Shown here: positions 2,335-63,931 of the stretch, piece after piece | Numbering within the stretch: position 1 is the stretch's first letter | Layout of the letters: each line of letters starts with the position of its first letter | Assembly: GCA_019352195.1 (NCBI GenBank) | Contig: JACAFG010000005.1 | Location: 92,287-156,286 of the forward strand | Direction: 5' to 3' | DNA: 64,000 nucleotides | Source: Candidatus Saccharimonadota bacterium | GTDB lineage: Bacteria > Patescibacteriota > Saccharimonadia > UBA4664 | Made by a program: the position numbers and the translations under genes | Notes under the pieces: model-generated | Seen by the model: only the letters and a program-made list of their open reading frames with translations | What the model was told of the DNA's origin: nothing | Databases searched by the model: none

Positions 2335-2381
2335 GCATAAGCAAAAAGCACAAAAACCGCTCAAAAGCTTGTAAAAATCAT

Positions 2382-2415
2382 TGACACATGCTCCAATTTA
2401 TGATACTTTGAACTA
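2382..2415 (+). promoter_or_regulatory. candidate sigma70-type promoter (TTGACA ... TATGAT/GATACT) in the intergenic region before the GC-rich island
   Basis: TTGACA at 2382-2387 with A/T-rich -10 candidates 15-18 nt downstream. Confidence 0.3.
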
Positions 2416-2602
2416 TCGCTCTGTTGGTGATTGGAAGATTTGTATAGCGAATACTCGCACTGGCAGCTGGACCTTGAAAAGTTGGACAGTCATGGGTCAT
2501 TAAATGAGGCCTGAATTTTAGGTCTTAAATACTGATCCGCGTTATACAAATCAACACACAATACCAACAGTCCATCCTTTCTACTCTCCCAAGGAGGCGG
2601 TC

Positions 2603-3175
2603 ATGACCGCAGATACAAGTTCCAGCGGTTCGACCGCAGGTTCATCTTCCCGCGAGCCGGAATACTTGCACCATGATGCAGTCGTCACCGTTGACGATTT
2701 CAACAATCTGGTGCGGACCTATCGCCGGCTCGGTGGTCTACTGAATCAACTTCAGGTCAAGGTCGATGGTCTTGCGCAGTCGGCTGCAACGCCTTCAGGC
2801 GAAACCGATGCGGACCGAATCGAGCGGAGTTTCGAAATCCTCAAAACGTCGCCCGAGTTTTTGGCGCGCGTTGGGGCTGCCGGAGACTATCTGGACGATT
2901 CCGCCTACTTCGATTCCGGAGTTTACATCACACGGAAGTTCTACTTGGCCGCGGACGCCTTGAAGGCGAACCCGCTTTTTGCGGGTATGTCGGCTCACGA
3001 GCGTGAAGAGATTGTGGCTGTTGCCCTGATCTCGAACGCCATCGAAGATGACACTGACAGGAACAAGAAGAAGCCCGCACGCTGTGAAGCGGTTGCGGCT
3101 GAAATCCTGGACACCATCGCTTTCAAGCTCCTTCCGGAGTACCTCAAAGCCGCCATCGCCCTCGGGCAAAAATAG
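2603..3175 (+). CDS. hypothetical protein (island-encoded, Ser/Thr-rich N-terminus)
   Basis: ORF with an AAGGAGG RBS 6 nt upstream. Lies in a GC-rich segment. No recognisable motif. Confidence 0.4.
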   Translation: MTADTSSSGSTAGSSSREPEYLHHDAVVTVDDFNNLVRTYRRLGGLLNQLQVKVDGLAQSAATPSGETDADRIERSFEILKTSPEFLARVGAAGDYLDDSAYFDSGVYITRKFYLAADALKANPLFAGMSAHEREEIVAVALISNAIEDDTDRNKKKPARCEAVAAEILDTIAFKLLPEYLKAAIALGQK

Positions 3176-4277: not shown

Positions 4278-5369
4278 TTGCACAACGATGCAGTTTTGGC
4301 CGATCTGGAGAAGAGGCTCGCCGGCATGCCGTCGACGCTCGATTCCGGGACGTCTAAGAGCAAGCTCCCGACGTCCGTTCCGCCCACGCGGGCGAGCGCC
4401 GATAACTCCTTCGGGAAGTGGTTGGTGAGGTTGCTCCTGCTCATGGTCGTCGGCGGCATCGTCGCCCTCTTCATGGGCATGACGCCGCAGCCGCAGACCG
4501 CTGCTCCCACCGCCTCGGCCCCGAGGTCGACCGCCCCGGTCGCCGTCCACCACGGTTCGCTGTTGGCCCCGTTCGGCATCACGTCGGGCATCGTCAACGG
4601 CGTGACCGGGCTGACGCCCAAGGCCACGACCCCGGCGAAGCCGGCGGCCAAGCCGAGGGTGGTGACCAAGGCCAAGATCATCATCAAGCGCGCGGCCCCC
4701 AAGCCGATCGCCAAGGTGGTGATCAAGCCGGTGACCAAGCCCCAGGCGTTGGCACCCGCGGCCCGTCCGCAGAGCAACGCCAACACGGTGACCAGCACCG
4801 ACAACCAGACGGCCACCGGCAACTCGGTGGCGACGGTCGTCGCCCAGCCGGCCCCCAAGATGACGCCGGCCCCCGCGCCCGCGAACCAGATCGTCACGGT
4901 TCGCCAGCCGGACCCGTTCAACAAGGTGGTGACCATCGGTCAGCCGAGTCACAAGTCTGACCCGGCCCCCAAGGCCTCCGATCCGGCCCCCAAGGCGGAT
5001 CCCACCCCCAAGGCCGCTCCGGACCCGGTCGTCGTCGTCAAGATCCCGGCCCCCCAGCCGGCACCGGTCGCCAAGAACCCGGCCCCGCAGCCGGCACCGG
5101 GCCCCAAGCCGGCTCCGGTCGCCAAGAACCCGGCTCCGCAGCCGGCACCGGTCGCCCAGAACCCGGCCCCGCAGCCGGCACCGGCCCCCCAGCCGATCGC
5201 CAAGAACGGCAGCGGGGCGCAGACCAACACGCCGGCCGGCGTGACCGATCAGAACACCAAGAGCGCGGTCACTGGGCAGGCCGGCGTCGGCACCGTCGCC
5301 ACCAATTCCGGTGGTAAGGGCGTCACCGACCCGAACCCGACCAACCAGACCGTGACCTTCGGCGGATAG
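4278..5369 (+). CDS. membrane-anchored proline/alanine/lysine-rich repeat protein
   Basis: Single N-terminal TM helix. Then tandem PAPQPAPVAKNPAPQPAP repeats with an actinobacterial-style proline-rich composition. Confidence 0.4.
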   Translation: MHNDAVLADLEKRLAGMPSTLDSGTSKSKLPTSVPPTRASADNSFGKWLVRLLLLMVVGGIVALFMGMTPQPQTAAPTASAPRSTAPVAVHHGSLLAPFGITSGIVNGVTGLTPKATTPAKPAAKPRVVTKAKIIIKRAAPKPIAKVVIKPVTKPQALAPAARPQSNANTVTSTDNQTATGNSVATVVAQPAPKMTPAPAPANQIVTVRQPDPFNKVVTIGQPSHKSDPAPKASDPAPKADPTPKAAPDPVVVVKIPAPQPAPVAKNPAPQPAPGPKPAPVAKNPAPQPAPVAQNPAPQPAPAPQPIAKNGSGAQTNTPAGVTDQNTKSAVTGQAGVGTVATNSGGKGVTDPNPTNQTVTFGG

Positions 5370-5867: not shown

Positions 5868-7445
5868 ATGTCCATCAAGACATTTGCTCGTTCTCGTTGG
5901 GGTAAGGTTGCCGCGGCTCTCATCCTCATTGCCGGAATCACGATTCCAGTAACGCAGGTAATGGGCGCCACGGGCACCGATCCTAACTGTCCAAACGACG
6001 GCTACGGCCGTGACTGTAACGATAACTCGCTCATTTATGGTGGCGTTTACACCAAGACTGAGTTCCTTAACCAATTTGACGCTAACAAAGACCGCGTTGG
6101 CCACACTGACCTGCAAGCCATTTATGGCGCCCAGGGTGTGACGCACGCTAACTTTGCCTCGGCCGATACCGTCCCCGGTGTCGTTTACAAAAATGGTGAT
6201 GTTAAAGTTAACGGTGTTACCGTTGCTACCAACACCTGGTCGAGCGGCCGTCAGTACGAGGCTGGATCAATCGCCAAAGACGGCGTTTACTTCCGCCCCG
6301 AACAGGTTGCGTTTATTGCTGACAGCATTCCTGCTTGGATCAACATGAACGGCAAGACGTTTAACTACGCGGTTATCATGTCCTGTGGTAACACGGTTGT
6401 AAGTTCGGCGACGCCCTTTGGCCAGATCTACAAGCGCGTGACTGATGTTACGACAGACCCAACTCACAACTACGCAGCTGACACGAATGCCACTGCTATC
6501 ACCGTTAACCCGGGCGACACGGTTAAATACCAGGTTCGCATCGATAACAACGGTTACGGCGACATGACTAACACGGTTATGACTGACACGTTGCCAACCG
6601 GTGTCGCGCTCTCCAACGGCGGCGATGGCCACCTGGTTGCCAACTTTGGCACCGTTAAGGCCTCGAGCGCGGTTGAAGCCGACATTACCGTTAAGGTGAC
6701 AAAGACAACCGAAGGTTACATCGACAACGAAGCTTGCTTTACCGCCAGCAACGGCCAGTCGGGTTGTGACCACGCGGTTATCCACGTTGTCCCTAAAGCT
6801 ACGCCCACGCCGACTGCTACGCCTACGCCTAGCATGACGCCCACCCCAACACCAAAGCCCACAACGCCAACTCCGACGCCTACGGTCACTCCAACCCCAA
6901 CGCCAACTCCTGTAGAGGAGTTCAGCTGTGGTGGCTTGGCCATTACGCCTAAGAGCGTAGGTTCGCTCGAGTACACCTTTACGATCACTCCCGTCACGAA
7001 GAACGTTACCGTTACTGGTTACATCTACGTGGTAAAGAATGACAAAGGCGTCACGGTAGCTACGCTTACAAGCGGTGCCAATCACAATAGTGTTGGCTAC
7101 ACCTTCCCAAGCGCTGGTAATTACAGCGTAACGGGTCAGGTTGTAACGAACCGTGGTACCACGCCCGTAGTTGAGCTTTGCTCGGCTAATGTGACAGCTG
7201 GCCCAACGGTTACCCCAACTCCTACGCCCACCCCTGGTACACCTACGCCTACCCCAACCCCTTGTACTACGCCTGAAACCGGTACGACTGGTGAAGTTTG
7301 TGGAGCCTCAACTGGCCCTTCAACCTTGCCTGCAACCGGTGGTGCAGCCCTCGGTGGCATTGGCGGCATTGGTGCTATTGGGTACGCCACTCGTGCCTAC
7401 TTGCTCTCTAAGAAGTCACTTATTGACTCTCTGCGCAACAAGTAA
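5868..7445 (+). CDS. LPXTG-anchored cell-surface protein with a Pro/Thr-rich linker
   Basis: GAAGGAGG RBS. N-terminal signal peptide. PT repeats (PTPTATPTPSMTPTPTPKPTTPTPTPT). C-terminal LPATGG followed by a hydrophobic stretch and a KKS tail, the sortase sorting signal. Confidence 0.7.
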   Translation: MSIKTFARSRWGKVAAALILIAGITIPVTQVMGATGTDPNCPNDGYGRDCNDNSLIYGGVYTKTEFLNQFDANKDRVGHTDLQAIYGAQGVTHANFASADTVPGVVYKNGDVKVNGVTVATNTWSSGRQYEAGSIAKDGVYFRPEQVAFIADSIPAWINMNGKTFNYAVIMSCGNTVVSSATPFGQIYKRVTDVTTDPTHNYAADTNATAITVNPGDTVKYQVRIDNNGYGDMTNTVMTDTLPTGVALSNGGDGHLVANFGTVKASSAVEADITVKVTKTTEGYIDNEACFTASNGQSGCDHAVIHVVPKATPTPTATPTPSMTPTPTPKPTTPTPTPTVTPTPTPTPVEEFSCGGLAITPKSVGSLEYTFTITPVTKNVTVTGYIYVVKNDKGVTVATLTSGANHNSVGYTFPSAGNYSVTGQVVTNRGTTPVVELCSANVTAGPTVTPTPTPTPGTPTPTPTPCTTPETGTTGEVCGASTGPSTLPATGGAALGGIGGIGAIGYATRAYLLSKKSLIDSLRNK

Positions 7446-7665
7446 TTGCGGTTTACCAGCGGGGCCTTGGCCCCGTAACGGTAAATTGGCGCCCATCGCT
7501 TTTGGATCGTGATTTTCACGAACCATGTCACTCGTATCAAAGAGGCCCCTCGCGGGCCTCTTTGTCGTGGAATTATTATGGCTTTACAAAGCCACTTATG
7601 CTTGTATAACGAGGTAAAAAAGACTACAGTTATCCATTGATTTACTGAGTTCATAACGGAGAAGA

Positions 7666-8424
7666 ATGATGAAACAAATTTCACGTCTGGTAGCAGCTCT
7701 CGTCCTGGTGGCGCTGGTAAGCCCAGTAACGGCTTTGGCCTCCACGGGCGGACGCGACTGCGACGATAACGCCTTAGTATATTGTGGTGCCTATACCCAA
7801 AGTGAGCTCAACACAAAAATTGCTCAGGGTGATACCAAAAACTCGGCGGCCGATTTGCAGGCCATTTACTCAAGCCGCGGTATGACTACGGCGGCCATTA
7901 ACGCCACCGTTGATGGCACTGTGTCGCAAGATGGCCGCGTGTTTGTGAACGGACACGTGGTGGCGACCGACGCTAAGAGCGACGGGCGCCACAAGCAGCC
8001 AACCGGTTCAGTAGCGGACGGTTCGTTGTGGCTGACGCCGACGCAGGATTCGTTCCTGAGCACATCAATTCAGGCGTTCGTTTATATGAAGAGTGGCGTC
8101 TTTCAGTGGGCCATTCTTAAGTCTTGTGGTAACACGGTGGTAGCCACACCGCCAACGACTCCGACGCCCACCCCGACGGCGACACCAACACCCAAGCCGA
8201 CGCCCACGCTAACTCCCGCGACGACGGTAACGCCGACGCCTACCCCGGTAGCGCCAACTCCTACGCCAACCCCGACCCCAACGCCCACGCCGCTGCCATC
8301 AACTGGTCCCGAAGCGCCGATTGCCGGTGTTATGGGGCTCACGGGCATCGGTTACGCTGCGCGCAGCTACTACGCCAGTCGTAACAAGTTGCGCAACGCC
8401 CTGCGCAAGATTGTGGATAAATAG
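7666..8424 (+). CDS. LPXTG-anchored cell-surface protein, paralog of 5868..7445
   Basis: Shared N-terminal domain (DC(D/N)DN(A/S)L(V/I)Y ... DLQAIY ... SCGNTVV). PT linker. C-terminal LPSTG followed by a hydrophobic stretch and an RNK tail. Confidence 0.7.
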   Translation: MMKQISRLVAALVLVALVSPVTALASTGGRDCDDNALVYCGAYTQSELNTKIAQGDTKNSAADLQAIYSSRGMTTAAINATVDGTVSQDGRVFVNGHVVATDAKSDGRHKQPTGSVADGSLWLTPTQDSFLSTSIQAFVYMKSGVFQWAILKSCGNTVVATPPTTPTPTPTATPTPKPTPTLTPATTVTPTPTPVAPTPTPTPTPTPTPLPSTGPEAPIAGVMGLTGIGYAARSYYASRNKLRNALRKIVDK

Positions 8425-16771: not shown

Positions 16772-17136
16772 GGCTCAAGCTGAAATTGGAGCTCCGACTT
16801 CCCTGTTTCTAGTTCGGTTTTTGTCTGGCCCATATCCGAACAAAATTATAGAGTGCACCACGGGGAAAATTCCCCGAGTAAATAAGAGCTAGTAGGGGGC
16901 AAAAGTGCGAAAAATGAGAAAATTCAAATTCAGCTTAAAAACCGGCTAGAACGGGCTTTTAGCTCATATGTGGCTTTGGCGTCGCAAAATATACATTGTG
17001 CGACATTGAGTCTATTGATGAGAAGATGACTACTACTACCCCTTTCGTATTCCATAATATCCTTATGCCAAGCCAATAAGCGCATTCTGAGTTATTTTGT
17101 GCAGTGATCTTGCTTCTCGTCGGTCTGTCTTTTGTC

Positions 17137-17189
17137 TTAATAGCCTAAGTCCCCCGCTCTAAATTAGAGCGGGGGACTTAGGCTATTAA
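17137..17189. terminator. perfect ~26-bp-arm palindrome (CTTAATAGCCTAAGTCCCCCGCTCTAA-a-TTAGAGCGGGGGACTTAGGCTATTAAG) between convergent operons
   Basis: Seen directly in the sequence. No flanking T-runs, so it could also be a protein-binding site. Confidence 0.5.
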
Positions 17190-17301
17190 GTTGGCGTGGT
17201 TTGGGGCGAGAGTACTCGGTAACTATGGGACGCGCTTCTACGCGAGCTGGGCGGGCGGTATAAGCCCAAAGTGTAAGACAGGGTTACACGGGGCGCTGGG
17301 G

Positions 17302-20205
17302 TTAGTTCTTCTGGTCAGAGGTAGGGGACTCGGCTGAAGGAGCAGCAACGCTAGCTGCTACCGGCTGCTGTTCCCCACTCTTTTGTTGCATGGCGGCCGC
17401 GATGGCTTCGCGGATGGCGTTGTCGTTCACACGAGGCGCAGGTGGTGCAATTACCCGCTGACTCCCCTGCCCTGCTGGCATGGCGGCAGGTGGGTTCACT
17501 GCTGGCGGTCGATACGCGTAACGCTTTGGTGCTGGCTCCTGGTGGCTGGTGGCGCGCTCCCGGCTGTCCGGTCGGCGCTGCTCCCCTGCTGTCTCGTTGG
17601 TTGGAGCAGGCGGCAAATTGGGGTTTTTGAGCGCAGCCAAGAATTCGCTCTTGGGTGTGTTCGGTGTTTGATCGGCAGAGGTCATATTCGAGGTAATTGG
17701 GTTGGTAGATACGACGTTGTCGACGGCGCGATCGCCCACGGAAGGGCCATCCTCGGTGCGGCTACGGATATCGGCTTCGACGCTAGCACGGTCGGAGGCA
17801 TAAACTGAGCGTGAATTAAGAACGATTTTCTCAAACAAATCGTTCTCGGGGTCGGGACGTCGTAAGGTTGTTGCCGAAAATGGAATAGTTTTCTCGCCGT
17901 TTACGATCATGGAGATGAAAATATTTTGGTTATTGAGGCGGGTAATATCGGTGGCTTCAAAGGTTGGCTCAAAATATTTACCCAAGATAACAGAGTCGCC
18001 TGGGCCAACGCGGAAGCTCACGATGGTACCAACGTTACCAAACACGGCGTCACGCACGGTTTCGGGCATTTGGGCGACGTATTGGTTAGCGACAGTGAGG
18101 TTCAGGCCGTACTTACGAGCTTCGGACAAGATTACAGCAAAACTATCGGTAGCAAAGTTTTGGAATTCGTCGACGTAGAGATAAAAGGGACGGCGATCCT
18201 CGAGGGCCATATCGGCTCGTCCCATGGCCGCAAGTTGGATCTTCGTAACCATAAGCGCGCCTAAAATGGCGGCGTTGTCTTCACCGACCTGACCGCGTGA
18301 GAGGTTAACGATGAGGATCTTGCCTTCATCCATAATTTTACGAAGGTTAAACGCTGACTTCTTTTGGCCGACGATATTACGGATGAGTGGGTTGGCCACA
18401 AAGGCACCCACCTTGTTGAGCACCGGAGCGATGGCTTCGGAGGCAAACTTCTCGTTCCAACTGGCAAATTCTGTTACCCAGAAGTTGCGCACGACCGGAT
18501 CGTCAATTTCTTTGATGACGCGTTTGCGGAAGTCTTTTTCGGTTAGCATGCGCGTGATGTCGAGCATGGTAGCGTCCGGATAGTCCAGCAGGGCTAAAAT
18601 TGTGTAGCGCAAAATGTACTCCAGGCGCGGACCCCAGGAGTTCTCAAACATGCGCTTAAGCACGCCGACGAGCTCGGAACTAATGTGGTTTTTGAGGTTG
18701 ATATCAATTACTTCCATCGGGTTGAAGGCCATTGGATTATCACGGTCGGTGGCGTCAAAATATACCACGTCTTTAATGCGGTCTTCGGGAATATACTTCA
18801 TGACGTCGGTAGCGTAATCACCGTGGGGGTCAATGATAGCAAAGCCTTGGTTTTGATATATGTCCGACAAAGTGAGCAGCTGCAGGAGCATACTCTTACC
18901 GGCGCCGGTTTGGCCAATGATGTACATGTGGCGGCCGCGGTCGCGGCGCTTGATCCCAAACTTGAGCTGGCGACCGCGGAAGTTGGTAAGACCAAACAAG
19001 CTCATGTCGCCCGGTTCGGTAATACCCTCAACCGGCAAACTGGCCGGGGGCTCGGAGGTCTTAGAGGTTGTCCATACCATTGATGGTGTTTCGACTGACT
19101 TGTGAGGCAAATGGTAGAGCGAGGCGAGCTCTTCAATATTGAGGACCTGGCCAGACTCGAGGAATAACCGAGAACGGTACTCGTCGATAAACTCAATTGA
19201 ATTATAGGTTTTACCCTGTCCAAAACCGTTCAAGTTGGTGGTGTTGAATTGCTTAAAGCCGCCAATAAGGGCCTGGAGACGCGACTTAGCCATGGTTTCG
19301 CTGGGACCAAGGTAGGCAATGCGAATTTTCACTTCATAACCGAGTTTGGTAATTTTTTCTTCGACAGCTTTGATCATGGTCTGATCGCCGGTGGAAACTT
19401 CGACTTTTTTGACCTCACCCGGTTTAGCAGTTGCATTTGGCGGCGTTGAGAGGGCCTTCGCGAAGTTGGAGACAATATAAATTGGCAGGCCGAGCAGTAG
19501 TTCCCGGAGTTCCCCCGCTAAACCGCGATCGCTTTTGCCTGCCTTGATGTTATCGATAAATTTCTTACCGCGGTCTTGCCAACTATCGTCAACGGGACGA
19601 GCCAAAATTTGGATCCAGGCTTCCTCGCCTACTCCTTCAAGCTTAGCGAGTACGCCCGTGATGCCGGCCAGCGGGTCGACTTCGAATGAGGCGAAAGTTT
19701 TTACTGGCAGTACGTCGGGCTTGGTGAGTACGAGCTCGGTACCATAAATAGCCCGCCCGCCGGGATCGGTTTTAGTGTAATCTTCGGGATTTTCGGCAAT
19801 CTGGACCGTAGGATACTGCGCGTAAACTTGGCTTTCAACAAAGTCTTTGAGGTGTTTGGGGCACCAAATATAAAACTGGATTGAGTTCTCGCGAGCAACA
19901 ATCTCAAATGAGATGTGCTCTTGGAGTGAGCCTTCACGCAGCAATTCATCTTTGCCGCGCAAAATGCCGTGCAGGGAGGCAAACATTTGTTCGGCCGAGA
20001 GCTCTTTTTTCTCGTTATCTTTGGGCACGTCGATACGCAGCAAAATCGTTTCAATTTCGTTGACCCATTTGATGCGGCGGCGGTTTTGATACGTAAGGTA
20101 CGCGATGACCGCAACCACTACGATCCAAAGTTGGAATTTAAATAGGAGCAGGCCAATAATATCTAAAATGGCAAATAGAGGCGATAAGACACTACCAAAT
20201 GGCAA
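17302..20205 (-). CDS. VirD4/TraG/FtsK-HerA-superfamily P-loop ATPase (type IV secretion coupling-protein-like) with an N-terminal membrane anchor and a Pro/Ala-rich C-terminal tail
   Basis: N-terminal TM helices. Walker A GQTGAGKS. Walker-B-like YLYVDEFQNF. Low-complexity C-terminus. Confidence 0.55.
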   Translation of the reverse strand: MPFGSVLSPLFAILDIIGLLLFKFQLWIVVVAVIAYLTYQNRRRIKWVNEIETILLRIDVPKDNEKKELSAEQMFASLHGILRGKDELLREGSLQEHISFEIVARENSIQFYIWCPKHLKDFVESQVYAQYPTVQIAENPEDYTKTDPGGRAIYGTELVLTKPDVLPVKTFASFEVDPLAGITGVLAKLEGVGEEAWIQILARPVDDSWQDRGKKFIDNIKAGKSDRGLAGELRELLLGLPIYIVSNFAKALSTPPNATAKPGEVKKVEVSTGDQTMIKAVEEKITKLGYEVKIRIAYLGPSETMAKSRLQALIGGFKQFNTTNLNGFGQGKTYNSIEFIDEYRSRLFLESGQVLNIEELASLYHLPHKSVETPSMVWTTSKTSEPPASLPVEGITEPGDMSLFGLTNFRGRQLKFGIKRRDRGRHMYIIGQTGAGKSMLLQLLTLSDIYQNQGFAIIDPHGDYATDVMKYIPEDRIKDVVYFDATDRDNPMAFNPMEVIDINLKNHISSELVGVLKRMFENSWGPRLEYILRYTILALLDYPDATMLDITRMLTEKDFRKRVIKEIDDPVVRNFWVTEFASWNEKFASEAIAPVLNKVGAFVANPLIRNIVGQKKSAFNLRKIMDEGKILIVNLSRGQVGEDNAAILGALMVTKIQLAAMGRADMALEDRRPFYLYVDEFQNFATDSFAVILSEARKYGLNLTVANQYVAQMPETVRDAVFGNVGTIVSFRVGPGDSVILGKYFEPTFEATDITRLNNQNIFISMIVNGEKTIPFSATTLRRPDPENDLFEKIVLNSRSVYASDRASVEADIRSRTEDGPSVGDRAVDNVVSTNPITSNMTSADQTPNTPKSEFLAALKNPNLPPAPTNETAGEQRRPDSRERATSHQEPAPKRYAYRPPAVNPPAAMPAGQGSQRVIAPPAPRVNDNAIREAIAAAMQQKSGEQQPVAASVAAPSAESPTSDQKN

Positions 20206-23108: not shown

Positions 23109-23842
23109 AAAGTTGCTCCTAGGGTGCCCGAACGGACGCTGTGGCCGCCGTGGGCGTCATAAAAATCATCGCAGTCGGCCAAACTGCTGGCAGCCATTTC
23201 AGATGCCCCGCCGATACGGGCGATCGTAGCGTATGGATAGTTAAACAGCAAGCGCCACAGTTTTATGGCGGGTTGTGACATCGGTGAAGCGACGGCGCCG
23301 CGGTCATCATCGCAGGTGAGGCCGCCCCGCTCGGCCTCAAACCAGTAACGCGAGTCAGCGTCCGACCGGCCACAGACGAGGCATTGGTCGAGTGACGGCT
23401 GCAGACCCGAAATGGCGAGGAGGCGGAGTTTAAACCATAGCTCGACCAGTGGACCTGACTCCCCTGCTTCGACCGCCCCCAAGGCCATGCGCGTGTGCGC
23501 GTACAGCTCGGGCTGGGGCTCACCAGGCTGGGCAAAGCGGTCCACGAGCGAGGCGATGATAAACGCCAGTCCTAGGCGCTCGTAGTTGGCCGTAAGCTCA
23601 TGCGGATACCACACGAGCCGGGCGGATGTAACTACGTCGAGGTTACGGCCGGTCGCAAGCATCAGCGCTACTTCGCCAAATGGCTCCAGATGACCACCCG
23701 ATTTGCTTTTAACGCGGCGAATACCTTTGGCAACGGCGCTAATCTTGCCATGTTCGGGCGTAATAAAGCGAATAATACGGTCGGCTTCGCCAAAATTGGT
23801 GCGGCTTAGCACGATGCCGGTAGTTTGGTATGTAGCGCCCAC
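23105..23842 (-). CDS. recO: DNA repair protein RecO
   Basis: N-terminal OB fold (GIVLSRTNFGEADRIIRFIT ... GKISAVAKGIRR) and a C-terminal Cys-containing region. GTG start with a TAGGAGGG RBS. Confidence 0.8.
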   Translation of the reverse strand: MGATYQTTGIVLSRTNFGEADRIIRFITPEHGKISAVAKGIRRVKSKSGGHLEPFGEVALMLATGRNLDVVTSARLVWYPHELTANYERLGLAFIIASLVDRFAQPGEPQPELYAHTRMALGAVEAGESGPLVELWFKLRLLAISGLQPSLDQCLVCGRSDADSRYWFEAERGGLTCDDDRGAVASPMSQPAIKLWRLLFNYPYATIARIGGASEMAASSLADCDDFYDAHGGHSVRSGTLGATL

Positions 23843-23896
23843 GCACCCTCCTATCTCAACTTATTATAGCGAGCGGGCGTATAAACGCGAAGCGAC

Positions 23897-40893: not shown

Positions 40894-41808
40894 CTAGAGT
40901 TTGAGATATCGGCTCATAGCTAAAATTGATGAGACGGCGCCAATAATAATTCCGAGCAGCAGTTCACCGCCTAAGATCACAAACGGATAGGATTGGAAGA
41001 AGCTGATGGTAGAACCAAAGTCGATATAACTAGCCACCTTGGGCGCACTACTCAAGAGAACTAGATACGAGAAGGTTACGGCAACGATGGCCGCGATAAT
41101 TCCGTAAAGGGCCGCCTCAAAAATAAACGGTCCGCGAATAAACCATTTGGTGGCACCGACAAGCTTCATGATTTCGATTTCATCGCGCCGGGTAAAAATG
41201 GCCATTCTGATGGTGTTGAAAATGATCAGTGTCGAAATGACGACAAAGACAATACTGGCTGCTAAGCCCGCAGTTTTGAAGAAGTTAGCAAAGTGAACAA
41301 TACGGTCGATGGTTTCTTTGCGGCCGCCCGTGTAGCTTGGTGGGGCGGTGGGATCGAGCAGACTTTGGTTGGCCTGCTGACTCACGACTGCTTCGATAGC
41401 GTCGAGATGTTTGGGATCGATGGCTTTTACCTCAATTGAAGACGGCAAAACATTGCCAGCTGTATCGAGCGCCTGGATGAGCGATGGCTTATCTTTGTTT
41501 TGGTTCTTATAGTTAGCAACTGCCTGATCAGGGCTGACATACATGAGGCTCGCGACGTTACCGCTGCTTTTGAGGGCGGCTTCGAAAGCAGCCACCTGAT
41601 CGGGCGTCGTGTTATTGTTGAGGAAAATCGAGACGTCAATTTTATCGGTCACCCCTTTGATGGTAGCGGTAAGGGCGAGGCTTGAGATAAACGACACAAT
41701 GACGATGATAAGGGTCACCGTCATAACGGCGGTAGCAGCAGTTGAGAGCCAGGCGTTACGCAGAAAGTTGCGGATGCCGCCGTGAAGTATTCGCCAAAAT
41801 TGCAGCAT
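40894..41808 (-). CDS. ftsX: cell division ABC transporter permease FtsX
   Basis: Four-TM FtsX topology with a large extracytoplasmic loop. Overlaps the ftsE stop. Confidence 0.85.
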   Translation of the reverse strand: MLQFWRILHGGIRNFLRNAWLSTAATAVMTVTLIIVIVSFISSLALTATIKGVTDKIDVSIFLNNNTTPDQVAAFEAALKSSGNVASLMYVSPDQAVANYKNQNKDKPSLIQALDTAGNVLPSSIEVKAIDPKHLDAIEAVVSQQANQSLLDPTAPPSYTGGRKETIDRIVHFANFFKTAGLAASIVFVVISTLIIFNTIRMAIFTRRDEIEIMKLVGATKWFIRGPFIFEAALYGIIAAIVAVTFSYLVLLSSAPKVASYIDFGSTISFFQSYPFVILGGELLLGIIIGAVSSILAMSRYLKL

Positions 41809-42551
41809 TAGTTTTGTGCCTCAACCCCAGTGGCAATGCCCTTGGTAGCGCCCTTGAGGGTCGTTGGGTTTTCTAAGGTGTAGCGTCCCTGTTCATCATC
41901 GCGGATGATGCGGCCGCGGTTGATCGTGATAACACGTCGTTTGAGGGCGTTTACAATTTCTTTGTTGTGCGTAGTGAGCAGCACGGTGGTACCAAAACGG
42001 TTAATTTTGAGCAAAAGCTCGATAATTTGCCAGGCATTGCCGGGGTCGAGGTTACCGGTTGGTTCGTCGGCGATAAGAATTTTGGGCTGGCGAATGAGCG
42101 CCCGGGCAATGGCGACACGCTGACGCTCACCACCTGACAGTTCGTGCGGGTACATGTTTTGCTTGGCCGATAGGCCAACGAGGGTGAGCATCTTGGGTAC
42201 AGCGCGCTTAATTTCGCGCTGGCGGGCCCCCGAAACTTCGAGCGCAAAGGCGACATTTTCACCTACGCGGCGGTTGGGTAGGAGTTTAAAATCTTGAAAC
42301 ACCACCCCAATGCGACGGCGCACGAGCGGCACGTCTTTCGCGGTAATCGTGTCGTAATCAAGTCCACCGACAATGATTTTGCCTGAACTATGCGTTTCTT
42401 CGCGCGTCAGAAGCTTGATGAGCGTACTCTTGCCGGCGCCACTGGAACCCACAATAGTCACAAATTCTTTAGGCTCAATATGAAGATTGAGACCCGATAA
42501 CGCCGTTTGGCCGTTCGGATATACTTTGGTAACTCGATCGAATAGAATCAT
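41808..42551 (-). CDS. ftsE: cell division ABC transporter ATP-binding protein FtsE
   Basis: Walker A GSSGAGKST. ABC signature LSGGERQRVAIARAL. Walker B ILIADEPT. About 247 aa. Confidence 0.9.
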   Translation of the reverse strand: MILFDRVTKVYPNGQTALSGLNLHIEPKEFVTIVGSSGAGKSTLIKLLTREETHSSGKIIVGGLDYDTITAKDVPLVRRRIGVVFQDFKLLPNRRVGENVAFALEVSGARQREIKRAVPKMLTLVGLSAKQNMYPHELSGGERQRVAIARALIRQPKILIADEPTGNLDPGNAWQIIELLLKINRFGTTVLLTTHNKEIVNALKRRVITINRGRIIRDDEQGRYTLENPTTLKGATKGIATGVEAQN

Positions 42552-42645: not shown

Positions 42646-43040
42646 GTCGTGAGAGACGGGCGATGATTTTGCGGCTTATTTCATTAGCCGCGGGGTGGCC
42701 TCAACTGGCTGGGACGGGCCCGGTTGGGCGGCGGACCGATGCTGGCCATGGCTTCGAGGGCACGGTTACCTCGATGGTTGCGTTGGGCGCCGGTGTGTCG
42801 AGTAATCGATTTCCGGCCGGCTCGGCCAAATAAGGTAGGCCGTCGGAGTTCTGGCCGGCGATGCCGGCGAAGGTCAGATGACGCAAGAAGCTGCCGACTT
42901 CGACGGCGAACTGGCTGGCGGTCGTGTCAGTCCCCTCGTCCCCAATTGCTACCAGAAACTTCGTCCGGCATTTGCGGCAGCGCCGATCGACTGATGGCAC
43001 ACGTATGCCGCACGCCCCACACGTGTAGGGACCGCCAACA

Positions 43041-43156
43041 CGAAATTAAGCGCGCTGTGCCCAAGATGCTCACCCTCGTTGGCCTATCGGCCAAGCAAAA
43101 CATGTACCCGCACGAACTGTCAGGTGGTGAGCGTCAGCGTGTCGCCATTGCCCGGG
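43041..43156 (+). repeat. 116-bp inverted duplicate (115/116 identical) of an internal ftsE segment (42101-42216, encoding EIKRAVPKMLTLVGLSAKQNMYPHELSGGERQRVAIAR)
   Basis: Direct sequence comparison. The single difference is a synonymous T/C (GTA vs GTG, Val). Confidence 0.85.
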
Positions 43157-43200
43157 GCAATTATTATCCCAAACATGTCATACTAGTTAAAGGTAGCCCA

Positions 43201-43569
43201 ATGAGCGAATACCCAAACCATATACGAGCGCAGTTTGATGAGGCGGTAACGTCGAGTCCCGACGCGCTGCTGTGTATTCTCAACCCGGCGGGCCAGCTGC
43301 TCGCGGTCTCGCCTTCAGTCGAGCCGATTCATGGCTATCTCCCGTCTGAAGTGGTTGGGACTAACTTTTCCATCTACTTTGATGCCGATGACGTAAATCA
43401 TCTAAGGTTAGTTATCCAAGATTGTATTCTAACCGGGCAATCCATCGAAGCAAGCCGCCGCGTTAAGCACAAAACTGGCGCCTACCGGCGAATGCGTGGG
43501 GCTGCCACCAAACTTGAGGATGATGCTACAGGTGATGCCTATATTCTCTCAATTGCTCGGCCGGTTTAG
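43201..43569 (+). CDS. small stand-alone PAS-domain protein
   Basis: About 122 aa. A PAS-like fold is inferred from ... LCILNPAGQLLAVSPSVEPIHGYLPSEVVGTNFSIYFDADD ... The ORF track fuses it to upstream junk (42724..). Confidence 0.45.
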   Translation: MSEYPNHIRAQFDEAVTSSPDALLCILNPAGQLLAVSPSVEPIHGYLPSEVVGTNFSIYFDADDVNHLRLVIQDCILTGQSIEASRRVKHKTGAYRRMRGAATKLEDDATGDAYILSIARPV

Positions 43570-61521: not shown

Positions 61522-62484
61522 CTAAACGGCGGCTGGAAGCTGGGCCTGGGCGAGAATCGTGCGAACTTCGGCAGGCGTTGTTGCGTCCATGAGTTGGGCG
61601 CGGAGCTCGGCTGCGTTGGGCCAACCAGCAACGTAGATTTTGAAGAACTTTTTTAACACCTGAAAGTGCTTCGTACTACCCCATTGTTCGTAAAGCTCAA
61701 CATGCCGCAGTAACACGGCAATCCGCTCTTCGGGCGTACGCTCGATGTGTTCGCTCGAAAAAACGTCGATGTCATGAAAAATGCCGCGCCCAATCATGAC
61801 GGCGTCGACGCCGGTTTGAGTAGCTAATTGTTCACCCTGGGCGCGGCTTAAGACATCACCGTTGCCAATAATGACGGTATGCGGCGCGAGCTGATCGCGC
61901 AATTTGACGACTTTAGAGATTTCGTCCCAATGGGCTGGTACTTTGCTCATTTCGCGCACGGTCCGGCCGTGGATGGTCAGAGCCGCCAGATTTTGTTGCA
62001 GGAGCCAGCCGGTCCATTCCTCGGTGATAATAGCGTTTAAGCCGACGCGGGTTTTGACGCTGACCGGTAAACCGGGCGCGCCGCGTTTAACGGCGGCGAT
62101 AATTTCGCCGGCTAGCTCGTAGTTGCCAATAAGGCCGCCGCAGCAGCCTCTGGCCACAATCCCCCGTTCAGGACAACCCATATTGATATCGATGCCGGCA
62201 AAGTTACCCGAGGCGGCAATTTCGCGCGCGGTGAGCTCGTACTTTTCGGGATCATTGCCCCAAATTTGGGCAATGAGGTTAGCTGACTCGCCCGGAAACA
62301 CACGCAAACGTTCTAACGTGCGTTCACGCCCCGCCGACTGAAGGCCGTCAATACTTACAAATTCGGTCATGAATACGTCGGGCGGCGCGACTTCTGCGAC
62401 TAACTGACGAAAGACCACGTCAGTAACGTCGTCCATGGGAGCCAAGACAAAAAAAGGCCGCTTAAGCTGTTGCCAAAAGTTCAT
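61522..62484 (-). CDS. dusB: tRNA-dihydrouridine synthase
   Basis: TIM-barrel Dus motifs (LAPMDDVTD, GIDINMGCP, catalytic Cys in RGCCGG). Confidence 0.85.
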   Translation of the reverse strand: MNFWQQLKRPFFVLAPMDDVTDVVFRQLVAEVAPPDVFMTEFVSIDGLQSAGRERTLERLRVFPGESANLIAQIWGNDPEKYELTAREIAASGNFAGIDINMGCPERGIVARGCCGGLIGNYELAGEIIAAVKRGAPGLPVSVKTRVGLNAIITEEWTGWLLQQNLAALTIHGRTVREMSKVPAHWDEISKVVKLRDQLAPHTVIIGNGDVLSRAQGEQLATQTGVDAVMIGRGIFHDIDVFSSEHIERTPEERIAVLLRHVELYEQWGSTKHFQVLKKFFKIYVAGWPNAAELRAQLMDATTPAEVRTILAQAQLPAAV

Positions 62485-62643
62485 TTTAGTATTGTAACAT
62501 CTATTTAGCTATTTGGGCACGGTCGGCTTGTTGGCGCCTAGCGGTTGATCCTTGAGGCCAAATAAATGGGGCTGGTAAAGCTAGGTAATATTCCAGGAGA
62601 GTTAGGTGTTTGGAAGGTTAGTTGATTAATTTGCATAAAGTGT

Positions 62644-62672
62644 GTTGACATTATTAACAATATGTGCTAGTA
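62644..62672 (+). promoter_or_regulatory. near-consensus sigma70 promoter TTGACA-17 nt-(TGc)TAGTAT
   Basis: TTGACA at 62644-62649. TAGTAT at 62667-62672 with an upstream TG. Confidence 0.55.
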
Positions 62673-62679
62673 TTTAGGG

Positions 62680-62907
62680 CGTGTTCCGCTTAAAGCGGGA
62701 TCGAACCAAACAAATATACCACTCATCTGCCTACAATAAGTAATGGAATGCACCCTCCTTTCGTTACTTGTAGGCGGATTAGTCCCTTCAAACCCGTTGT
62801 TCTTCACTGTAACATCGCACAAAACAGCTTCGCGCTGCGGTTGAAGGGTGTAACAAAATCCCCACCGGTTGTAACCACCTACAACTGTCGTGGGGATTTT
62901 GTTTTGG
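62680..62907 (+). ncRNA. candidate orphan structured small RNA (~230 nt) bounded by the promoter above and an intrinsic terminator (stem AAAATCCCCA/TGGGGATTTT at 62855-62900, then GTTTTGG)
   Basis: No plausible ORF or RBS. Internal long-range complementarity (CCTACAATAAGTAA/TTACTTGTAGG; GTCCCTTCAAAC/GTTGAAGGG). A nested GTTGTA/TACAAC hairpin sits inside the terminator loop. The next gene is on the opposite strand. Confidence 0.3.
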
Positions 62908-63225
62908 TAACTCCACTGTCAATACACTGGCAAAATTCCGATATAACCACATAATTCTGCGCCGGAATACTCTGGGTAGCCCCGGTATCGCCCTACCGTC
63001 GTCTAACCCGCTAAAGTCAAGACCGCGTTGTCGCGGCGCAATCACCGGAGTGAGGCGGATGAGGCCTCGGAACGTGTCGATGTAGTCGTAGCCGGGGGCG
63101 GACCTGAATTCAAAGATACCAACAGGATTGAACATTTCGCCGTTGTCGCGCAATTTACGTCGTTTGGCGGCACGCCTTATTTCGGATTCCGACGAGACCA
63201 GGTGGTATACTTCGTGGCTGTTCAT
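62788..63225 (-). CDS. hypothetical protein; its 3' third overlaps the structured region and may be a spurious extension
   Basis: ORF downstream of pth on the same strand. Weak RBS. No motif. Confidence 0.2.
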   Translation of the reverse strand: MNSHEVYHLVSSESEIRRAAKRRKLRDNGEMFNPVGIFEFRSAPGYDYIDTFRGLIRLTPVIAPRQRGLDFSGLDDGRAIPGLPRVFRRRIMWLYRNFASVLTVELPKQNPHDSCRWLQPVGILLHPSTAARSCFVRCYSEEQRV

Positions 63226-63319
63226 GGCAGACTCGATTCTTCTGCGCGAGGAGGCTCATCGAGCTCTTTGGGCCTCGCATAGACAAAAATACTATACACT
63301 CTAGTAGATGTTAAGTTAA

Positions 63320-63931
63320 CTAAAGCAGCAAGGTGGTGTCTTCTATGAGCTCGATTTCGCGGAGTTTGGCGACAAGGACGTCGGCAGCGCGTCGGATAAC
63401 CGTGGGCAGCGCGGCTTGTTCGTCGGTGCTAAATGGTTTGAGAACATACACTTCGCTGGGTTCGACCGCGCGGTCGTTAAGGCTAATACCCATACGTACG
63501 TGGACAAATTGATTACCGATAGCGGCCGTGATGGAGCGAATCCCCTGCTGACCAGAAGTGGCGCCGTGTCTGATACGGAGTTTGCCAAAATCGACGTCGA
63601 CATCATCATAAATTACCCAAACGTCGTCTAATTTGACGCGGTACTTTTGCATCAGTCGCTGCACGGCGTCCCCGCTGAGATTCATCATAGTTTGAGGTTT
63701 AGCCAAAATAAGTTCAACTTCAGCTAGCTCGGCCTTAATGATTTCGGCCTTAGATTTGTCGTCGGAGGTCCACTTGGAGATTTTTAAGCCTTGATTTGAA
63801 TAGGCTTCGGCGGCCGCAATGGAGGTTCGCAGCTGCTCGGCGAGCTCGTCGATGACCATAAAACCTATGTTATGGCGCGTATTGGCGTAGCGTTTGCCAA
63901 CATTACCGAGACCAACGATTAGTTTGGTCAC
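63320..63931 (-). CDS. pth: peptidyl-tRNA hydrolase
   Basis: MTKLIVGLGNVGKRYANTRHNIGFMVID N-terminal Pth signature. Confidence 0.9.
   Translation of the reverse strand: MTKLIVGLGNVGKRYANTRHNIGFMVIDELAEQLRTSIAAAEAYSNQGLKISKWTSDDKSKAEIIKAELAEVELILAKPQTMMNLSGDAVQRLMQKYRVKLDDVWVIYDDVDVDFGKLRIRHGATSGQQGIRSITAAIGNQFVHVRMGISLNDRAVEPSEVYVLKPFSTDEQAALPTVIRRAADVLVAKLREIELIEDTTLLL

What the first reader, a model, noticed from the sequence alone, without database searches (positions are those of the whole stretch)
62644..62907. Orphan promoter-to-terminator unit without an ORF: candidate structured small RNA
A near-consensus TG-extended promoter (TTGACA-17-TAGTAT) is followed about 230 nt later by a canonical intrinsic terminator (a 10-bp G/C-containing stem then GUUUUGG). 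Between them there is no credible ORF or RBS. Extensive local and long-range complementarity is visible, and the next gene is on the opposite strand. I could not match it to tRNA, tmRNA, RNase P RNA, 6S or SRP RNA motifs by eye.
Basis: seen in the sequence. Interest (0 to 1): 0.6.

Follow-up and report, generated by a model that had tools for sequence, protein, structure and literature searches.

The report
New conserved small RNA in Saccharibacteria
The flagged stretch is a real, independently transcribed, roughly 225-nt structured non-coding RNA gene that is conserved in many uncultured Saccharibacteria, matches no described RNA family, and displays an unchanging loop that looks like the ribosome's anti-Shine-Dalgarno sequence.

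Summary
Window 62645-62907 (+) holds a near-consensus extended -10 promoter, about 228 nt without a conserved ORF, and a strong intrinsic terminator. The window comes from a Saccharibacteria (Ca. Saccharimonadia, CPR) genome.

I found 52 homologues: 14 MAG loci and 38 metagenome contigs. All have the same promoter, the same terminator and the same fold. That fold is a 5' hairpin, a CA-rich linker, a long hairpin P2 with the invariant loop AUGCACCCUCCUUU, a three-way junction P3 with invariant strands, and a terminator capped by an ACCACC loop.

- **Covariation is strong.** 96% of cells are paired, against 35-46% in slid controls. 27 of 45 pairs show compensatory changes.
- **The RNA strand is +.** Helices hold 150 G·U cells against 18 A·C cells.
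- **No known family matches.** Rfam 15, tRNA and tmRNA scans are all negative.
- **The overlapping minus-strand ORF is not a gene.** It has no homologue anywhere.

The gene always lies convergent with pth and back-to-back with dprA-dus. It persists where dprA has been lost, as in this window.

Function is inferred. The most likely role is a trans-acting regulator that pairs its anti-SD-like loop with ribosome-binding sites. The best in-window site is the recO start, but it is only weakly conserved. A protein-binding role is a serious rival.

The parts
62631..62639 (-). Conserved TTGCATAAA block 8 nt upstream of the -35. Read on the minus strand it is the dprA start (ATG CAA at 62636-62631). 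In this window only a 32-codon relic ORF remains (62538-62636).
   Evidence: The block is conserved in about 38 of 41 homologues. tblastn places residue 1 of DprA at this position in about 40 loci. The L001 ORF 3131-3976 is DprA by Pfam. The window relic has no Pfam hit.
62645..62650 (+). -35 hexamer TTGACA.
   Evidence: It is identical in 40 of 41 homologues that have upstream DNA.
62665..62673 (+). Extended -10, TGC TAGTAT, after a 17-nt spacer.
   Evidence: TGnTAnnnT with a 17-nt spacer is present in 40 of 41 homologues.
62680..62907 (+). Inferred transcript of about 228 nt. The 5' end is inferred from the -10 position and the 3' end from the terminator U run.
   Evidence: CM hit at 62678-62914, 184 bits, E = 9e-51, the only hit in the window. 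Fold z = -8.5. The ends are inferred, not mapped.
62682..62702 (+). P1, a 5' hairpin. Its sequence varies but the hairpin is always present.
   Evidence: Every full-length homologue folds a local hairpin here with a different sequence. MFE fold.
62703..62720 (+). Unpaired CA-rich linker with ACCA-type repeats. Consensus: AAGAACCACACCAACAUACC.
62721..62783 (+). P2, a long bipartite hairpin of 13 + 9 pairs.
   Evidence: Helices 1 and 2. 12 of 22 pairs have changes on both sides, and 95% of cells are paired.
62748..62761 (+). Invariant P2 apical loop AUGCACCCUCCUUU. It contains CCUCCUUU, the canonical anti-Shine-Dalgarno core.
   Evidence: It is invariant in the 15 sequences found without any sequence pattern, and in all 44 aligned. 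SD-type motifs AAGGAGG occur upstream of window genes.
62784..62848 (+). P3 three-way junction. The closing helix CCCUUC/GAAGGG is nearly invariant. Two inner hairpins covary. The junction strands ACCCG, UCGCACAAAAC and GGUUGAAGGGUG are invariant.
   Evidence: Helices 3-5. Invariant columns.
62852..62907 (+). Intrinsic terminator: a long hairpin plus U run, with the conserved apical hexaloop ACCACC at 62874-62879. An A-tract on the 5' side makes it a plausible two-way terminator, also serving pth.
   Evidence: Helix 6: 9 of 11 pairs have compensatory changes. ACCACC is the loop in 34 of 44 homologues. pth ends 40-130 nt away on the other strand in many loci. Two-way use is inferred.
62788..63225 (-). 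Mechanical ORF of 145 aa overlapping the RNA's 3' part. It is not a gene.
   Evidence: No Pfam hit. No tblastn hit in any relative. No homologue among 5.8e9 proteins.

Best explanation
This is a stand-alone gene for a structured non-coding RNA of about 225 nt. It represents a new family found in soil and rhizosphere Saccharibacteria (Ca. Saccharimonadia).

Shown here:
- It has its own near-consensus extended -10 promoter and a strong intrinsic terminator.
- It has no conserved ORF.
- Its fold is conserved and covarying: P1 hairpin, CA-rich linker, long hairpin P2, three-way junction P3, terminator.
- It is present once in the window.
- Its genomic position is fixed: convergent with pth and back-to-back with dprA-dus.
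- It persists in genomes that have lost dprA or gained a gene next to it.

Inferred mechanism: it acts in trans as a base-pairing regulator. The long P2 stem displays an invariant 14-nt loop, AUGCACCCUCCUUU, which contains the anti-Shine-Dalgarno core CCUCCUUU. A second C-rich loop, ACCACC, caps the terminator. These loops would pair with G-rich ribosome-binding sites (GGAGG and flanks), occlude them, and lower translation of Shine-Dalgarno-led genes.

My confidence that it is a genuine conserved RNA gene is about 0.95. My confidence in this particular mechanism is about 0.35. The confidence figure given for this explanation (0.4) refers to gene plus mechanism together.
For: Gene status:
- Promoter and terminator are present.
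- The promoter is kept in 40 of 41 homologues.
- There are 52 homologues with CM E-values from 1e-26 to 1e-67, and exactly one hit in the window.

Structure:
- 96.3% of cells are paired, against 35-46% when partners are slid.
- 27 of 45 pairs have compensatory changes, against 8-11 when slid.
- 0 of 500 shuffles reach the observed values.
- Strand: 150 G·U against 18 A·C cells. Fold z is -8.5 on + and -4.6 on -.

Non-coding:
- The ORF from the invariant AUG runs from 6 to more than 60 codons in shifting frames.
- ORF145 has no homologue.

Trans action:
- The RNA is retained without dprA in the window, L004, L083 and L163.
- Most loci have no co-oriented downstream gene.

Seed-like loop:
- The stems of P2 vary and covary while its loop never changes.
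- Window genes with leaders use AAGGAGG-type SDs.
- The best duplex for the loop anywhere in the 64 kb, on either strand, is the recO start region UAGGAGGGUGCGUG. It gives -25.8 kcal/mol, about 6.5 sd below the mean of 42,648 windows, and covers the SD and the GUG start.
- The same site is present in two relatives.
Against: - No transcript data exist for this RNA.
- The recO site is absent in two further relatives, one of which (L175) belongs to a genome that carries the RNA. So recO is at best a lineage-specific target.
- An anti-SD-like loop will score well on any SD, so the top hit is less surprising than its z-score suggests.
- Matches to the loop's complement in the window are not enriched: 6 found against 14.6 expected at up to 3 mismatches.
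- No recurrent target appeared in 211 kb of flanking DNA of relatives.
- The near-invariant P3 junction (sequence-constrained helix and strands) is more than a base-pairing sRNA needs. It points to a protein, a ligand or a tertiary fold.
- The 16S 3' end of these organisms was not available, so 'anti-SD-like' rests on SD motifs and textbook knowledge.
Confidence: 0.4

Rival explanations
1. It is a protein-binding RNA: either a sequestering RNA or the RNA part of a ribonucleoprotein. The invariant P3 junction and the repeated C-rich single-stranded motifs (CACCCUCC, ACCACC, ACCA repeats) would be protein contact sites. One specific version is that the P2 loop imitates the 3' tail of 16S rRNA (...CACCUCCUUU) and titrates a factor that binds that tail, such as a KH-domain protein like Era, or a maturation or hibernation factor.
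For: - The P3 closing helix and junction strands are invariant without covariation. This is a sequence constraint, not only a pairing constraint.
- C-rich motifs recur in unpaired places.
- The promoter is near-consensus and conserved, as for housekeeping RNAs.
- No conserved mRNA target was found.
- The loop differs from the canonical 16S tail by only one extra C and the flanks (sequence; the 16S tail is from textbook knowledge).
Against: - No candidate protein is linked by gene neighbourhood. The neighbours are pth, dprA, dus and sometimes a methyltransferase.
- There is no array of many repeated identical sites as in CsrB-type sponges.
- There is no match to 6S, Y RNA, SRP or other known protein-bound RNAs.
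Confidence: 0.25
2. It is a local, strand-opposed module for the pth - dprA - dus gene row. These three genes all lie on the other strand. The strong promoter and two-way terminator would insulate pth from dprA-dus. The RNA would then act as a cis-antisense transcript, or by promoter competition, on dprA, whose start codon sits 8 nt from the -35.
For: - The position is fixed between pth and dprA in nearly all homologues, down to Pth identity of about 35-40%.
- The dprA start codon is at a constant distance from the -35.
- The terminator has an A-tract and a U-tract.
Against: - The RNA is kept, with all invariant loops, in genomes where dprA is deleted: the window, L004, L083 and L163.
- A pure antisense or interference role does not need a covarying fold with a G·U strand bias, or invariant loops.
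- The RNA overlaps no coding sequence.
Confidence: 0.1
3. It is a cis-regulatory leader (riboswitch-like) for a downstream gene. The P3 junction would be a ligand pocket and the terminator the expression platform.
For: - In one subclade an RMKL-like (UPF0020) methyltransferase gene starts 12-50 nt after the terminator on the same strand. The members are L001, L003, L006, L082/L108, L109, L131 and L161/L168; L140 and L149 are cut by contig ends, and in L011 the gene sits about 650 nt away.
- The junction with invariant unpaired strands looks aptamer-like.
Against: - Most homologues, including the window and the most divergent ones, have no co-oriented downstream gene. pth converges instead.
- No conserved anti-terminator pairing was found.
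- The only conserved alternative pairing (P2 loop with the 3' strand of P3) costs +6 to +31 kcal/mol.
- No riboswitch or T-box model matches.
Confidence: 0.07
4. It is not a functional RNA. The conservation would reflect DNA-level signals only (divergent promoters, a shared terminator) or a small protein (MHPP...).
For: - Promoter and terminator blocks are among the conserved parts.
- An invariant AUG opens an ORF in every homologue.
Against: - Compensatory changes occur in five of six helices and G·U is strand-biased.
- Invariant blocks lie in the middle of the transcript, far from the promoter and terminator.
- ORF length runs from 6 to more than 60 codons with frame changes, and no SD precedes the AUG, which sits in a hairpin loop.
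Confidence: 0.03

Closest known systems
RoxS/RsaE of Firmicutes, and the C-rich hairpins of S. aureus RNAIII (from my own knowledge, not tested by experiment here)
   Same: It is an independently transcribed sRNA with an intrinsic terminator. Conserved C-rich unpaired motifs are displayed in loops and pair with G-rich Shine-Dalgarno regions to block translation. The seed is far more conserved than the stems.
   Different: There is no sequence or model similarity (no Rfam hit). This RNA is about twice as long, has a sequence-invariant three-way junction, and comes from a different phylum. Its targets and any chaperone are unknown.
6C RNA of Actinobacteria (from my own knowledge)
   Same: It is conserved across a whole lineage and has C-rich loops on stable hairpins that are thought to pair with G-rich targets.
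   Different: 6C is about 60-80 nt with two hairpins whose loops carry at least 6 C. Here the loops are CACCCUCC and ACCACC on a roughly 225-nt multi-domain RNA. There is no Rfam match.
csRNAs of Streptococcus, the CiaR-controlled sRNAs (from my own knowledge)
   Same: There is an unpaired stretch complementary to the SD plus nucleotides around the start codon. There is a link to competence and recombination genes: csRNAs act on comC, while this RNA sits next to dprA and its best in-window match is recO.
   Different: csRNAs are 90-150 nt with the seed between two hairpins, and they are driven by a CiaR direct repeat. Here the seed is a hairpin loop and the promoter is a plain consensus one. 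There is no model match. The recO pairing is conserved only in close relatives.
Housekeeping structured RNAs: 6S, SRP RNA, tmRNA, RNase P RNA, Y RNA
   Same: It shares their size range, a strong conserved promoter, a single copy, and lineage-wide conservation with covariation.
   Different: None of their defining architectures is present. The 5' and 3' ends do not pair. There is no central bubble, no GNRA-capped domain IV, no tRNA-like domain and no tag ORF. There are no Rfam or ARAGORN hits.

Membership tests
Any described RNA family (Rfam 15, 4227 models) | A score at or near the family's gathering threshold. | tested here: not met
   There are 0 hits at gathering thresholds in the whole window. 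At E up to 10 on 62400-63400, only two miRNA models appear, at 15-16 bits. On 13 homologous loci, no family hits the element consistently.
tRNA / tmRNA | A cloverleaf or tRNA-like domain, with a tag-peptide ORF for tmRNA. | tested here: not met
   ARAGORN finds nothing in the window.
6S RNA | 5' and 3' ends paired into a long closing stem, a large central bubble, and a terminal stem-loop. | tested here: not met
   The conserved structure is a chain of local domains (P1, P2, P3, terminator). The ends do not pair in the covariation-supported fold. There is no 6S model hit.
Bacterial trans-encoded small RNA (generic kind) | Its own promoter. | tested here: met
   TTGACA-17-TGnTAnnnT is present in the window and in 40 of 41 homologues. 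This is sequence evidence only; the transcription start is not mapped.
Bacterial trans-encoded small RNA (generic kind) | An intrinsic terminator ending the unit, with no co-transcribed downstream gene. | tested here: met
   There is a covarying hairpin plus U run. pth converges from the other strand in the window and in most loci. The exception is a subclade with a methyltransferase gene directly downstream.
Bacterial trans-encoded small RNA (generic kind) | No conserved reading frame. | tested here: met
Bacterial trans-encoded small RNA (generic kind) | A conserved single-stranded seed with conserved mRNA targets. | tested here: inconclusive
   An invariant exposed loop is present. The only strong candidate target, the recO start region, is kept in 2 of 4 relatives examined. 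Whole genomes were not available for target prediction.
Bacterial trans-encoded small RNA (generic kind) | A detectable transcript of the predicted size. | not testable with these tools
   There is no expression data. The one TM7x transcriptome paper consulted states that there are no validated small RNAs in that organism (10.1101/2022.03.25.485537).
RoxS/RsaE, 6C, csRNA (C-rich or anti-SD seed sRNAs) | Homology to the family model. | tested here: not met
   There are no hits even at E up to 10. The resemblance is functional and architectural only.
Riboswitch / T-box leader | A co-oriented downstream gene in most representatives, and mutually exclusive terminator and anti-terminator pairings. 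| tested here: not met
   A downstream co-oriented gene is present only in one subclade. The alternative pairing is unfavourable by 6-31 kcal/mol. No riboswitch or T-box model hits.

The most novel reading that the evidence does not exclude
The RNA is an abundant, class-wide 'free anti-Shine-Dalgarno' RNA. By presenting the same CCUCCUUU sequence as the 16S rRNA tail on a rigid stem, it would compete with ribosomes for SD-led mRNAs, or titrate a factor that recognises the 16S tail. That would shift translation between SD-led and leaderless mRNAs. Both types seem common in this genome: about 20 of 45 long ORFs have a -10 box at leaderless distance and about 21 have an SD (rough count). The invariant three-way junction would then be the control point, a protein or ligand site, for a global translation switch in a bacterium with very few regulators.
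Probability: 0.1. Interest if true: 0.85.

Novelty: new variant of a known kind. Interest (0 to 1): 0.6.

Why it matters
Saccharibacteria and other CPR/Patescibacteria have tiny genomes and few recognisable regulators. According to the TM7x transcriptome preprint consulted, that organism has no validated small RNAs (10.1101/2022.03.25.485537).

A roughly 225-nt RNA that is conserved across lineages whose Pth proteins have diverged to about 35-40% identity is likely to do something central. It has a consensus promoter, strong covariation and long invariant blocks. It gives a concrete, testable entry point into post-transcriptional control in these epibionts, some of which can now be cultured and transformed.

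If the anti-SD-like loop works as proposed, the RNA would also bear on how a genome that mixes leaderless and SD-led genes balances the two. At the least, it is a well-supported new RNA family that genome annotation currently misses, leaving spurious ORFs such as the 145-aa one here.

Tried and rejected
- **Known RNA families.** Rfam at gathering and at permissive thresholds, on the window and on 13 homologous loci, gave nothing. ARAGORN gave nothing.
- **Repeat or mobile element.** There is no second copy in the window and no match in IMG/VR viral contigs.
- **Coding on the minus strand (ORF145).** Rejected.
- **Coding on the plus strand from the invariant AUG (MHPP...).** Rejected, because lengths and frames are not conserved.
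- **Upstream TTGCATAAA as an UP element or operator.** It is instead explained as the dprA start codon region on the other strand.
- **Conformational switch in which the P2 loop pairs with the SD-like 3' strand of P3 (GAAGGGUG or GGAGGGUG).** It is complementary in all clades but costs +6 to +31 kcal/mol against the conserved fold. Both partners are invariant, so covariation cannot test it. Rejected as an equilibrium switch.
- **Pseudoknots or long-range pairs.** A covariation scan found none beyond the six helices and the two apical hairpins.
- **recO as a conserved target.** It is present in the window and two relatives but absent in two others, so support is weak.
- **Recurrent targets in the flanks of relatives.** None was found.
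- **16S rRNA 3' end, or the 530 region, of these organisms.** I looked for them to compare with the loop or its complement, but no rRNA is in any sequence held.
- **Literature.** Searches for Saccharibacteria or Patescibacteria sRNAs and for the loop sequence found nothing relevant.
- **Metagenome pattern hits.** 53 of the 91 hits were chance matches to the short pattern. They were discarded after nhmmer and CM screening.

Full report
**What is in the sequence.**
Between dus (61522-62484, minus strand; Pfam Dus, E = 2.5e-45) and pth (63320-63931, minus strand; Pfam Pept_tRNA_hydro, E = 9.7e-50) lies 835 nt without a recognisable gene. On the plus strand there is TTGACA (62645-62650), a 17-nt spacer ending in TGC, and TAGTAT (62668-62673).

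The strict pattern TTGACA-N14-TGNTANNNT has 7 matches at up to 1 mismatch in the 64 kb, against 0.61 expected. This site is one of two exact matches.

About 180 nt further on, a hairpin spans 62852-62903. Its outer stem is 14 bp, with an inner 6-bp stem and an ACCACC loop. It runs into a U stretch.

The 228 nt from 62680 to 62907 fold to -88.1 kcal/mol, z = -8.5 against dinucleotide shuffles. The opposite strand gives z = -4.6.

**Where the window comes from.**
Relatives of the Dus protein in one-genome-per-species contigs are almost all metagenome-assembled genomes labelled Saccharibacteria, Saccharimonadia or Patescibacteria. The RecO protein of the window is 100% identical to an NCBI entry from 'Candidatus Saccharibacteria bacterium'.

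**Conservation.**
A single-sequence nhmmer search of the 80 Dus loci found the element in 14 of them, always on the strand opposite to dus. In this pattern-free set the promoter hexamers, the block AUGCACCCUCCU and several other blocks are already invariant.

A motif search of metagenome contigs gave 91 loci. Profile and covariance-model screening kept 38 of them as full homologues and discarded 53 as chance matches to the short pattern. The invariance of the two pattern blocks in those 38 is partly by construction.

The covariance model (R1, 246 positions) scores homologues at 99-241 bits and finds exactly one copy in the window. Nothing was found in viral contigs.

**Structure.**
RNAalifold and the model-based alignment of 44 sequences agree on six helices. 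On that alignment:
- 96.3% of cells form standard pairs, against 35-46% when the 3' partners are slid by 1-3 columns.
- 27 of 45 pairs have changes on both sides, against 8-11 when slid.
- No shuffle out of 500 reaches the observed values on any measure.

Helices contain 150 G·U cells but only 18 A·C cells, so selection acts on the plus-strand RNA.

The anatomy, in window coordinates:
- **P1** (about 62682-62702): a hairpin present in every full-length homologue with a different sequence.
- **Linker** (62703-62720): unpaired and CA-rich.
- **P2** (62721-62783): 22 pairs with many compensatory changes, capped by the invariant loop AUGCACCCUCCUUU (62748-62761).
- **P3** (62784-62848): a three-way junction. 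Its closing helix CCCUUC/GAAGGG and its junction strands (ACCCG, UCGCACAAAAC, GGUUGAAGGGUG) hardly vary. Its two inner hairpins covary.
- **Terminator** (62852-62907): 9 of 11 pairs covary, and the apical loop is ACCACC in 34 of 44 sequences.

A covariation scan found no further long-range pairs.

**Not coding.**
The ORF opened by the invariant AUG in the P2 loop ends after 6 to more than 60 codons, in different frames in different homologues. It has no SD.

- It has no Pfam hit.
- It has no tblastn match in any relative.
- It has no space in loci where pth ends 25-70 nt from the RNA.
- It has no homologue among 5.8 billion proteins.

**Not a known RNA.**
Rfam 15 gives no hit at gathering thresholds in the whole window. 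At E up to 10 it gives only two meaningless miRNA matches on the region, and nothing consistent on 13 homologous loci. ARAGORN finds no tRNA or tmRNA. The conserved fold has none of the defining layouts of 6S, SRP, RNase P or tmRNA.

Literature searches found no described Saccharibacteria sRNA. A TM7x transcriptome preprint states that the organism has 'no currently validated small RNAs'.

**Genomic setting.**
The RNA gene is embedded, in the opposite orientation, in a row of same-strand genes pth - dprA - dus.

pth converges on the RNA's terminator. In many loci, including the most divergent ones, it ends 40-130 nt away. The terminator has an A-tract before and a U-tract after the stem, so it may stop both transcripts. 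This is inferred.

On the other side, the conserved block TTGCATAAA lies 8 nt upstream of the -35. It is the reverse complement of the dprA start (ATG CAA). Residue 1 of DprA maps to that position in about 40 loci.

In the window, dprA has been deleted and only a 32-codon relic (62538-62636) remains. L004, L083 and L163 have also lost it, yet they keep the RNA intact. In one subclade an RMKL-like methyltransferase gene has been placed 12-50 nt after the terminator on the RNA's strand. So the RNA is retained through gain and loss of its neighbours. That argues for a function of its own rather than a purely local one.

**How it probably works.**
The pattern in P2 is that of a seed displayed for base pairing: the stems vary freely under pairing constraint, while the 14-nt loop never changes.

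The loop contains CCUCCUUU. This is the core of the canonical anti-Shine-Dalgarno sequence (textbook knowledge; the 16S gene of these organisms was not in any sequence I hold). Genes in the window that have leaders use AAGGAGG-type SDs. A second C-rich loop (ACCACC) and a CA-rich linker are also exposed.

This is the design of C-rich-loop regulators such as RoxS/RsaE, RNAIII hairpins, 6C and the streptococcal csRNAs (my own knowledge). Those RNAs occlude ribosome-binding sites.

I scanned both strands of the window with the loop. The best duplex apart from the RNA's own antisense is the recO start region, UAGGAGGGUGCGUG at 23853-23840 on the minus strand. It has 12 contiguous pairs covering the SD and the GUG start, at -25.8 kcal/mol. 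The mean is -6.5 and the sd 3.0 over 42,648 windows.

The same GGAGGGUGCGUG is present in two relatives with 79% and 73% RecO identity. It is absent in two others, one of which carries the RNA. No recurrent site appeared in the flanks of relatives.

The pairing model is therefore plausible but not demonstrated. I put it at about 0.35.

**Rivals.**
- **Protein or ligand binding (about 0.25).** The sequence-invariant P3 junction is not needed for a simple pairing RNA. A version worth testing is that the loop mimics the 16S tail.
- **Local role (about 0.1).** This would be insulation, antisense action or promoter competition with dprA. The fixed position fits it, but retention after dprA loss and the strand-specific fold do not.
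- **Riboswitch-like leader for the methyltransferase (about 0.07).** This fits one subclade only. The only conserved alternative pairing, the P2 loop with the SD-like 3' strand of P3, costs 6-31 kcal/mol.
- **DNA-only signals or a peptide.** These are essentially excluded.

**Verdict.**
It is a new, well-supported structured sRNA family of Saccharibacteria, of a known general kind (promoter-to-terminator sRNA with a C-rich seed loop). It has no relation to any described family and an unusually constrained three-way junction. Function remains inferred.

Noticed in passing
window 62538-62639 (-): This is a relic of dprA. The start codon and second codon (ATG CAA) sit 8 nt from the sRNA's -35, as in about 40 relatives with a full dprA. 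Here only a 32-codon ORF (MQINQLTF...) remains before dus. Where the dprA promoter lies in relatives is unresolved. It must overlap the sRNA promoter or gene, or dprA is read through from pth.
   Followed up: partly
window 62908-63319: This is a 412-nt spacer between the sRNA terminator and the pth stop. It has no nucleotide or protein similarity to any relative, whereas in many relatives this gap is only 40-130 nt. It carries promoter-like sites on the minus strand (63319-63286) and the spurious ORF145. Its origin is unknown.
   Followed up: partly
window 23840-23870 (-): The recO start region has TATAAT, then UAGGAGGGUGCGUG with a GUG start only 4 nt after the SD. It is 12 bp complementary to the sRNA's P2 loop. 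The site is conserved in L172 and L173 but not in L174 or L175.
   Followed up: partly
window, many gene starts (e.g. dus 62484, 21249, 31884, 48272, 61188): Many genes have a TAnnnT box 5-9 nt upstream of the start codon and no SD, which suggests leaderless mRNAs. In a rough count of 45 long ORFs, 20 have such a box, against about 8 expected by chance, and 21 have an SD-like motif.
   Followed up: partly
L001 1816-2838 (-), and the same position in L003, L006, L082/L108, L109, L131, L140, L149, L161/L168: An RMKL-like (UPF0020) methyltransferase gene starts 12-50 nt after the sRNA terminator on the same strand, with no room for a promoter of its own. It may depend on terminator read-through.
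   Followed up: partly
window 42101-42229 and 43028-43156: These are 129-nt inverted repeats, 97% complementary and 798 nt apart. One arm lies in an ABC-transporter ATPase gene (41808-42551, -). The other lies in an ORF (42724-43569, +) that combines an ABC_tran fragment with PAS domains. This looks like an inverted partial gene duplication.
   Followed up: partly
window 17136-17190: This is a perfect 27-nt palindrome with a 1-nt centre (CTTAATAGCCTAAGTCCCCCGCTCTAA / TTAGAGCGGGGGACTTAGGCTATTAAG), just before the long gene at 17302-20205 (-).
   Followed up: no
window 2381-2602 (+): This is the only other exact match to TTGACA-N14-TGnTAnnnT in the window. It lies about 190 nt upstream of an ORF with a good SD (2603-3175, no Pfam hit). 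It could be a long leader or another small RNA.
   Followed up: no
window 4690-5240 and 6790-8290: These are stretches of short tandem and dispersed repeats encoding Pro/Ala/Lys-rich and Thr/Pro-rich segments, probably in surface proteins.
   Followed up: no
L060 3239-3290 (-): This is the one homologue without the TTGACA/TGnTAnnnT promoter. The upstream DNA is unrelated GC-rich sequence, and dprA is N-terminally truncated there. It may be a rearrangement or an assembly join.
   Followed up: no
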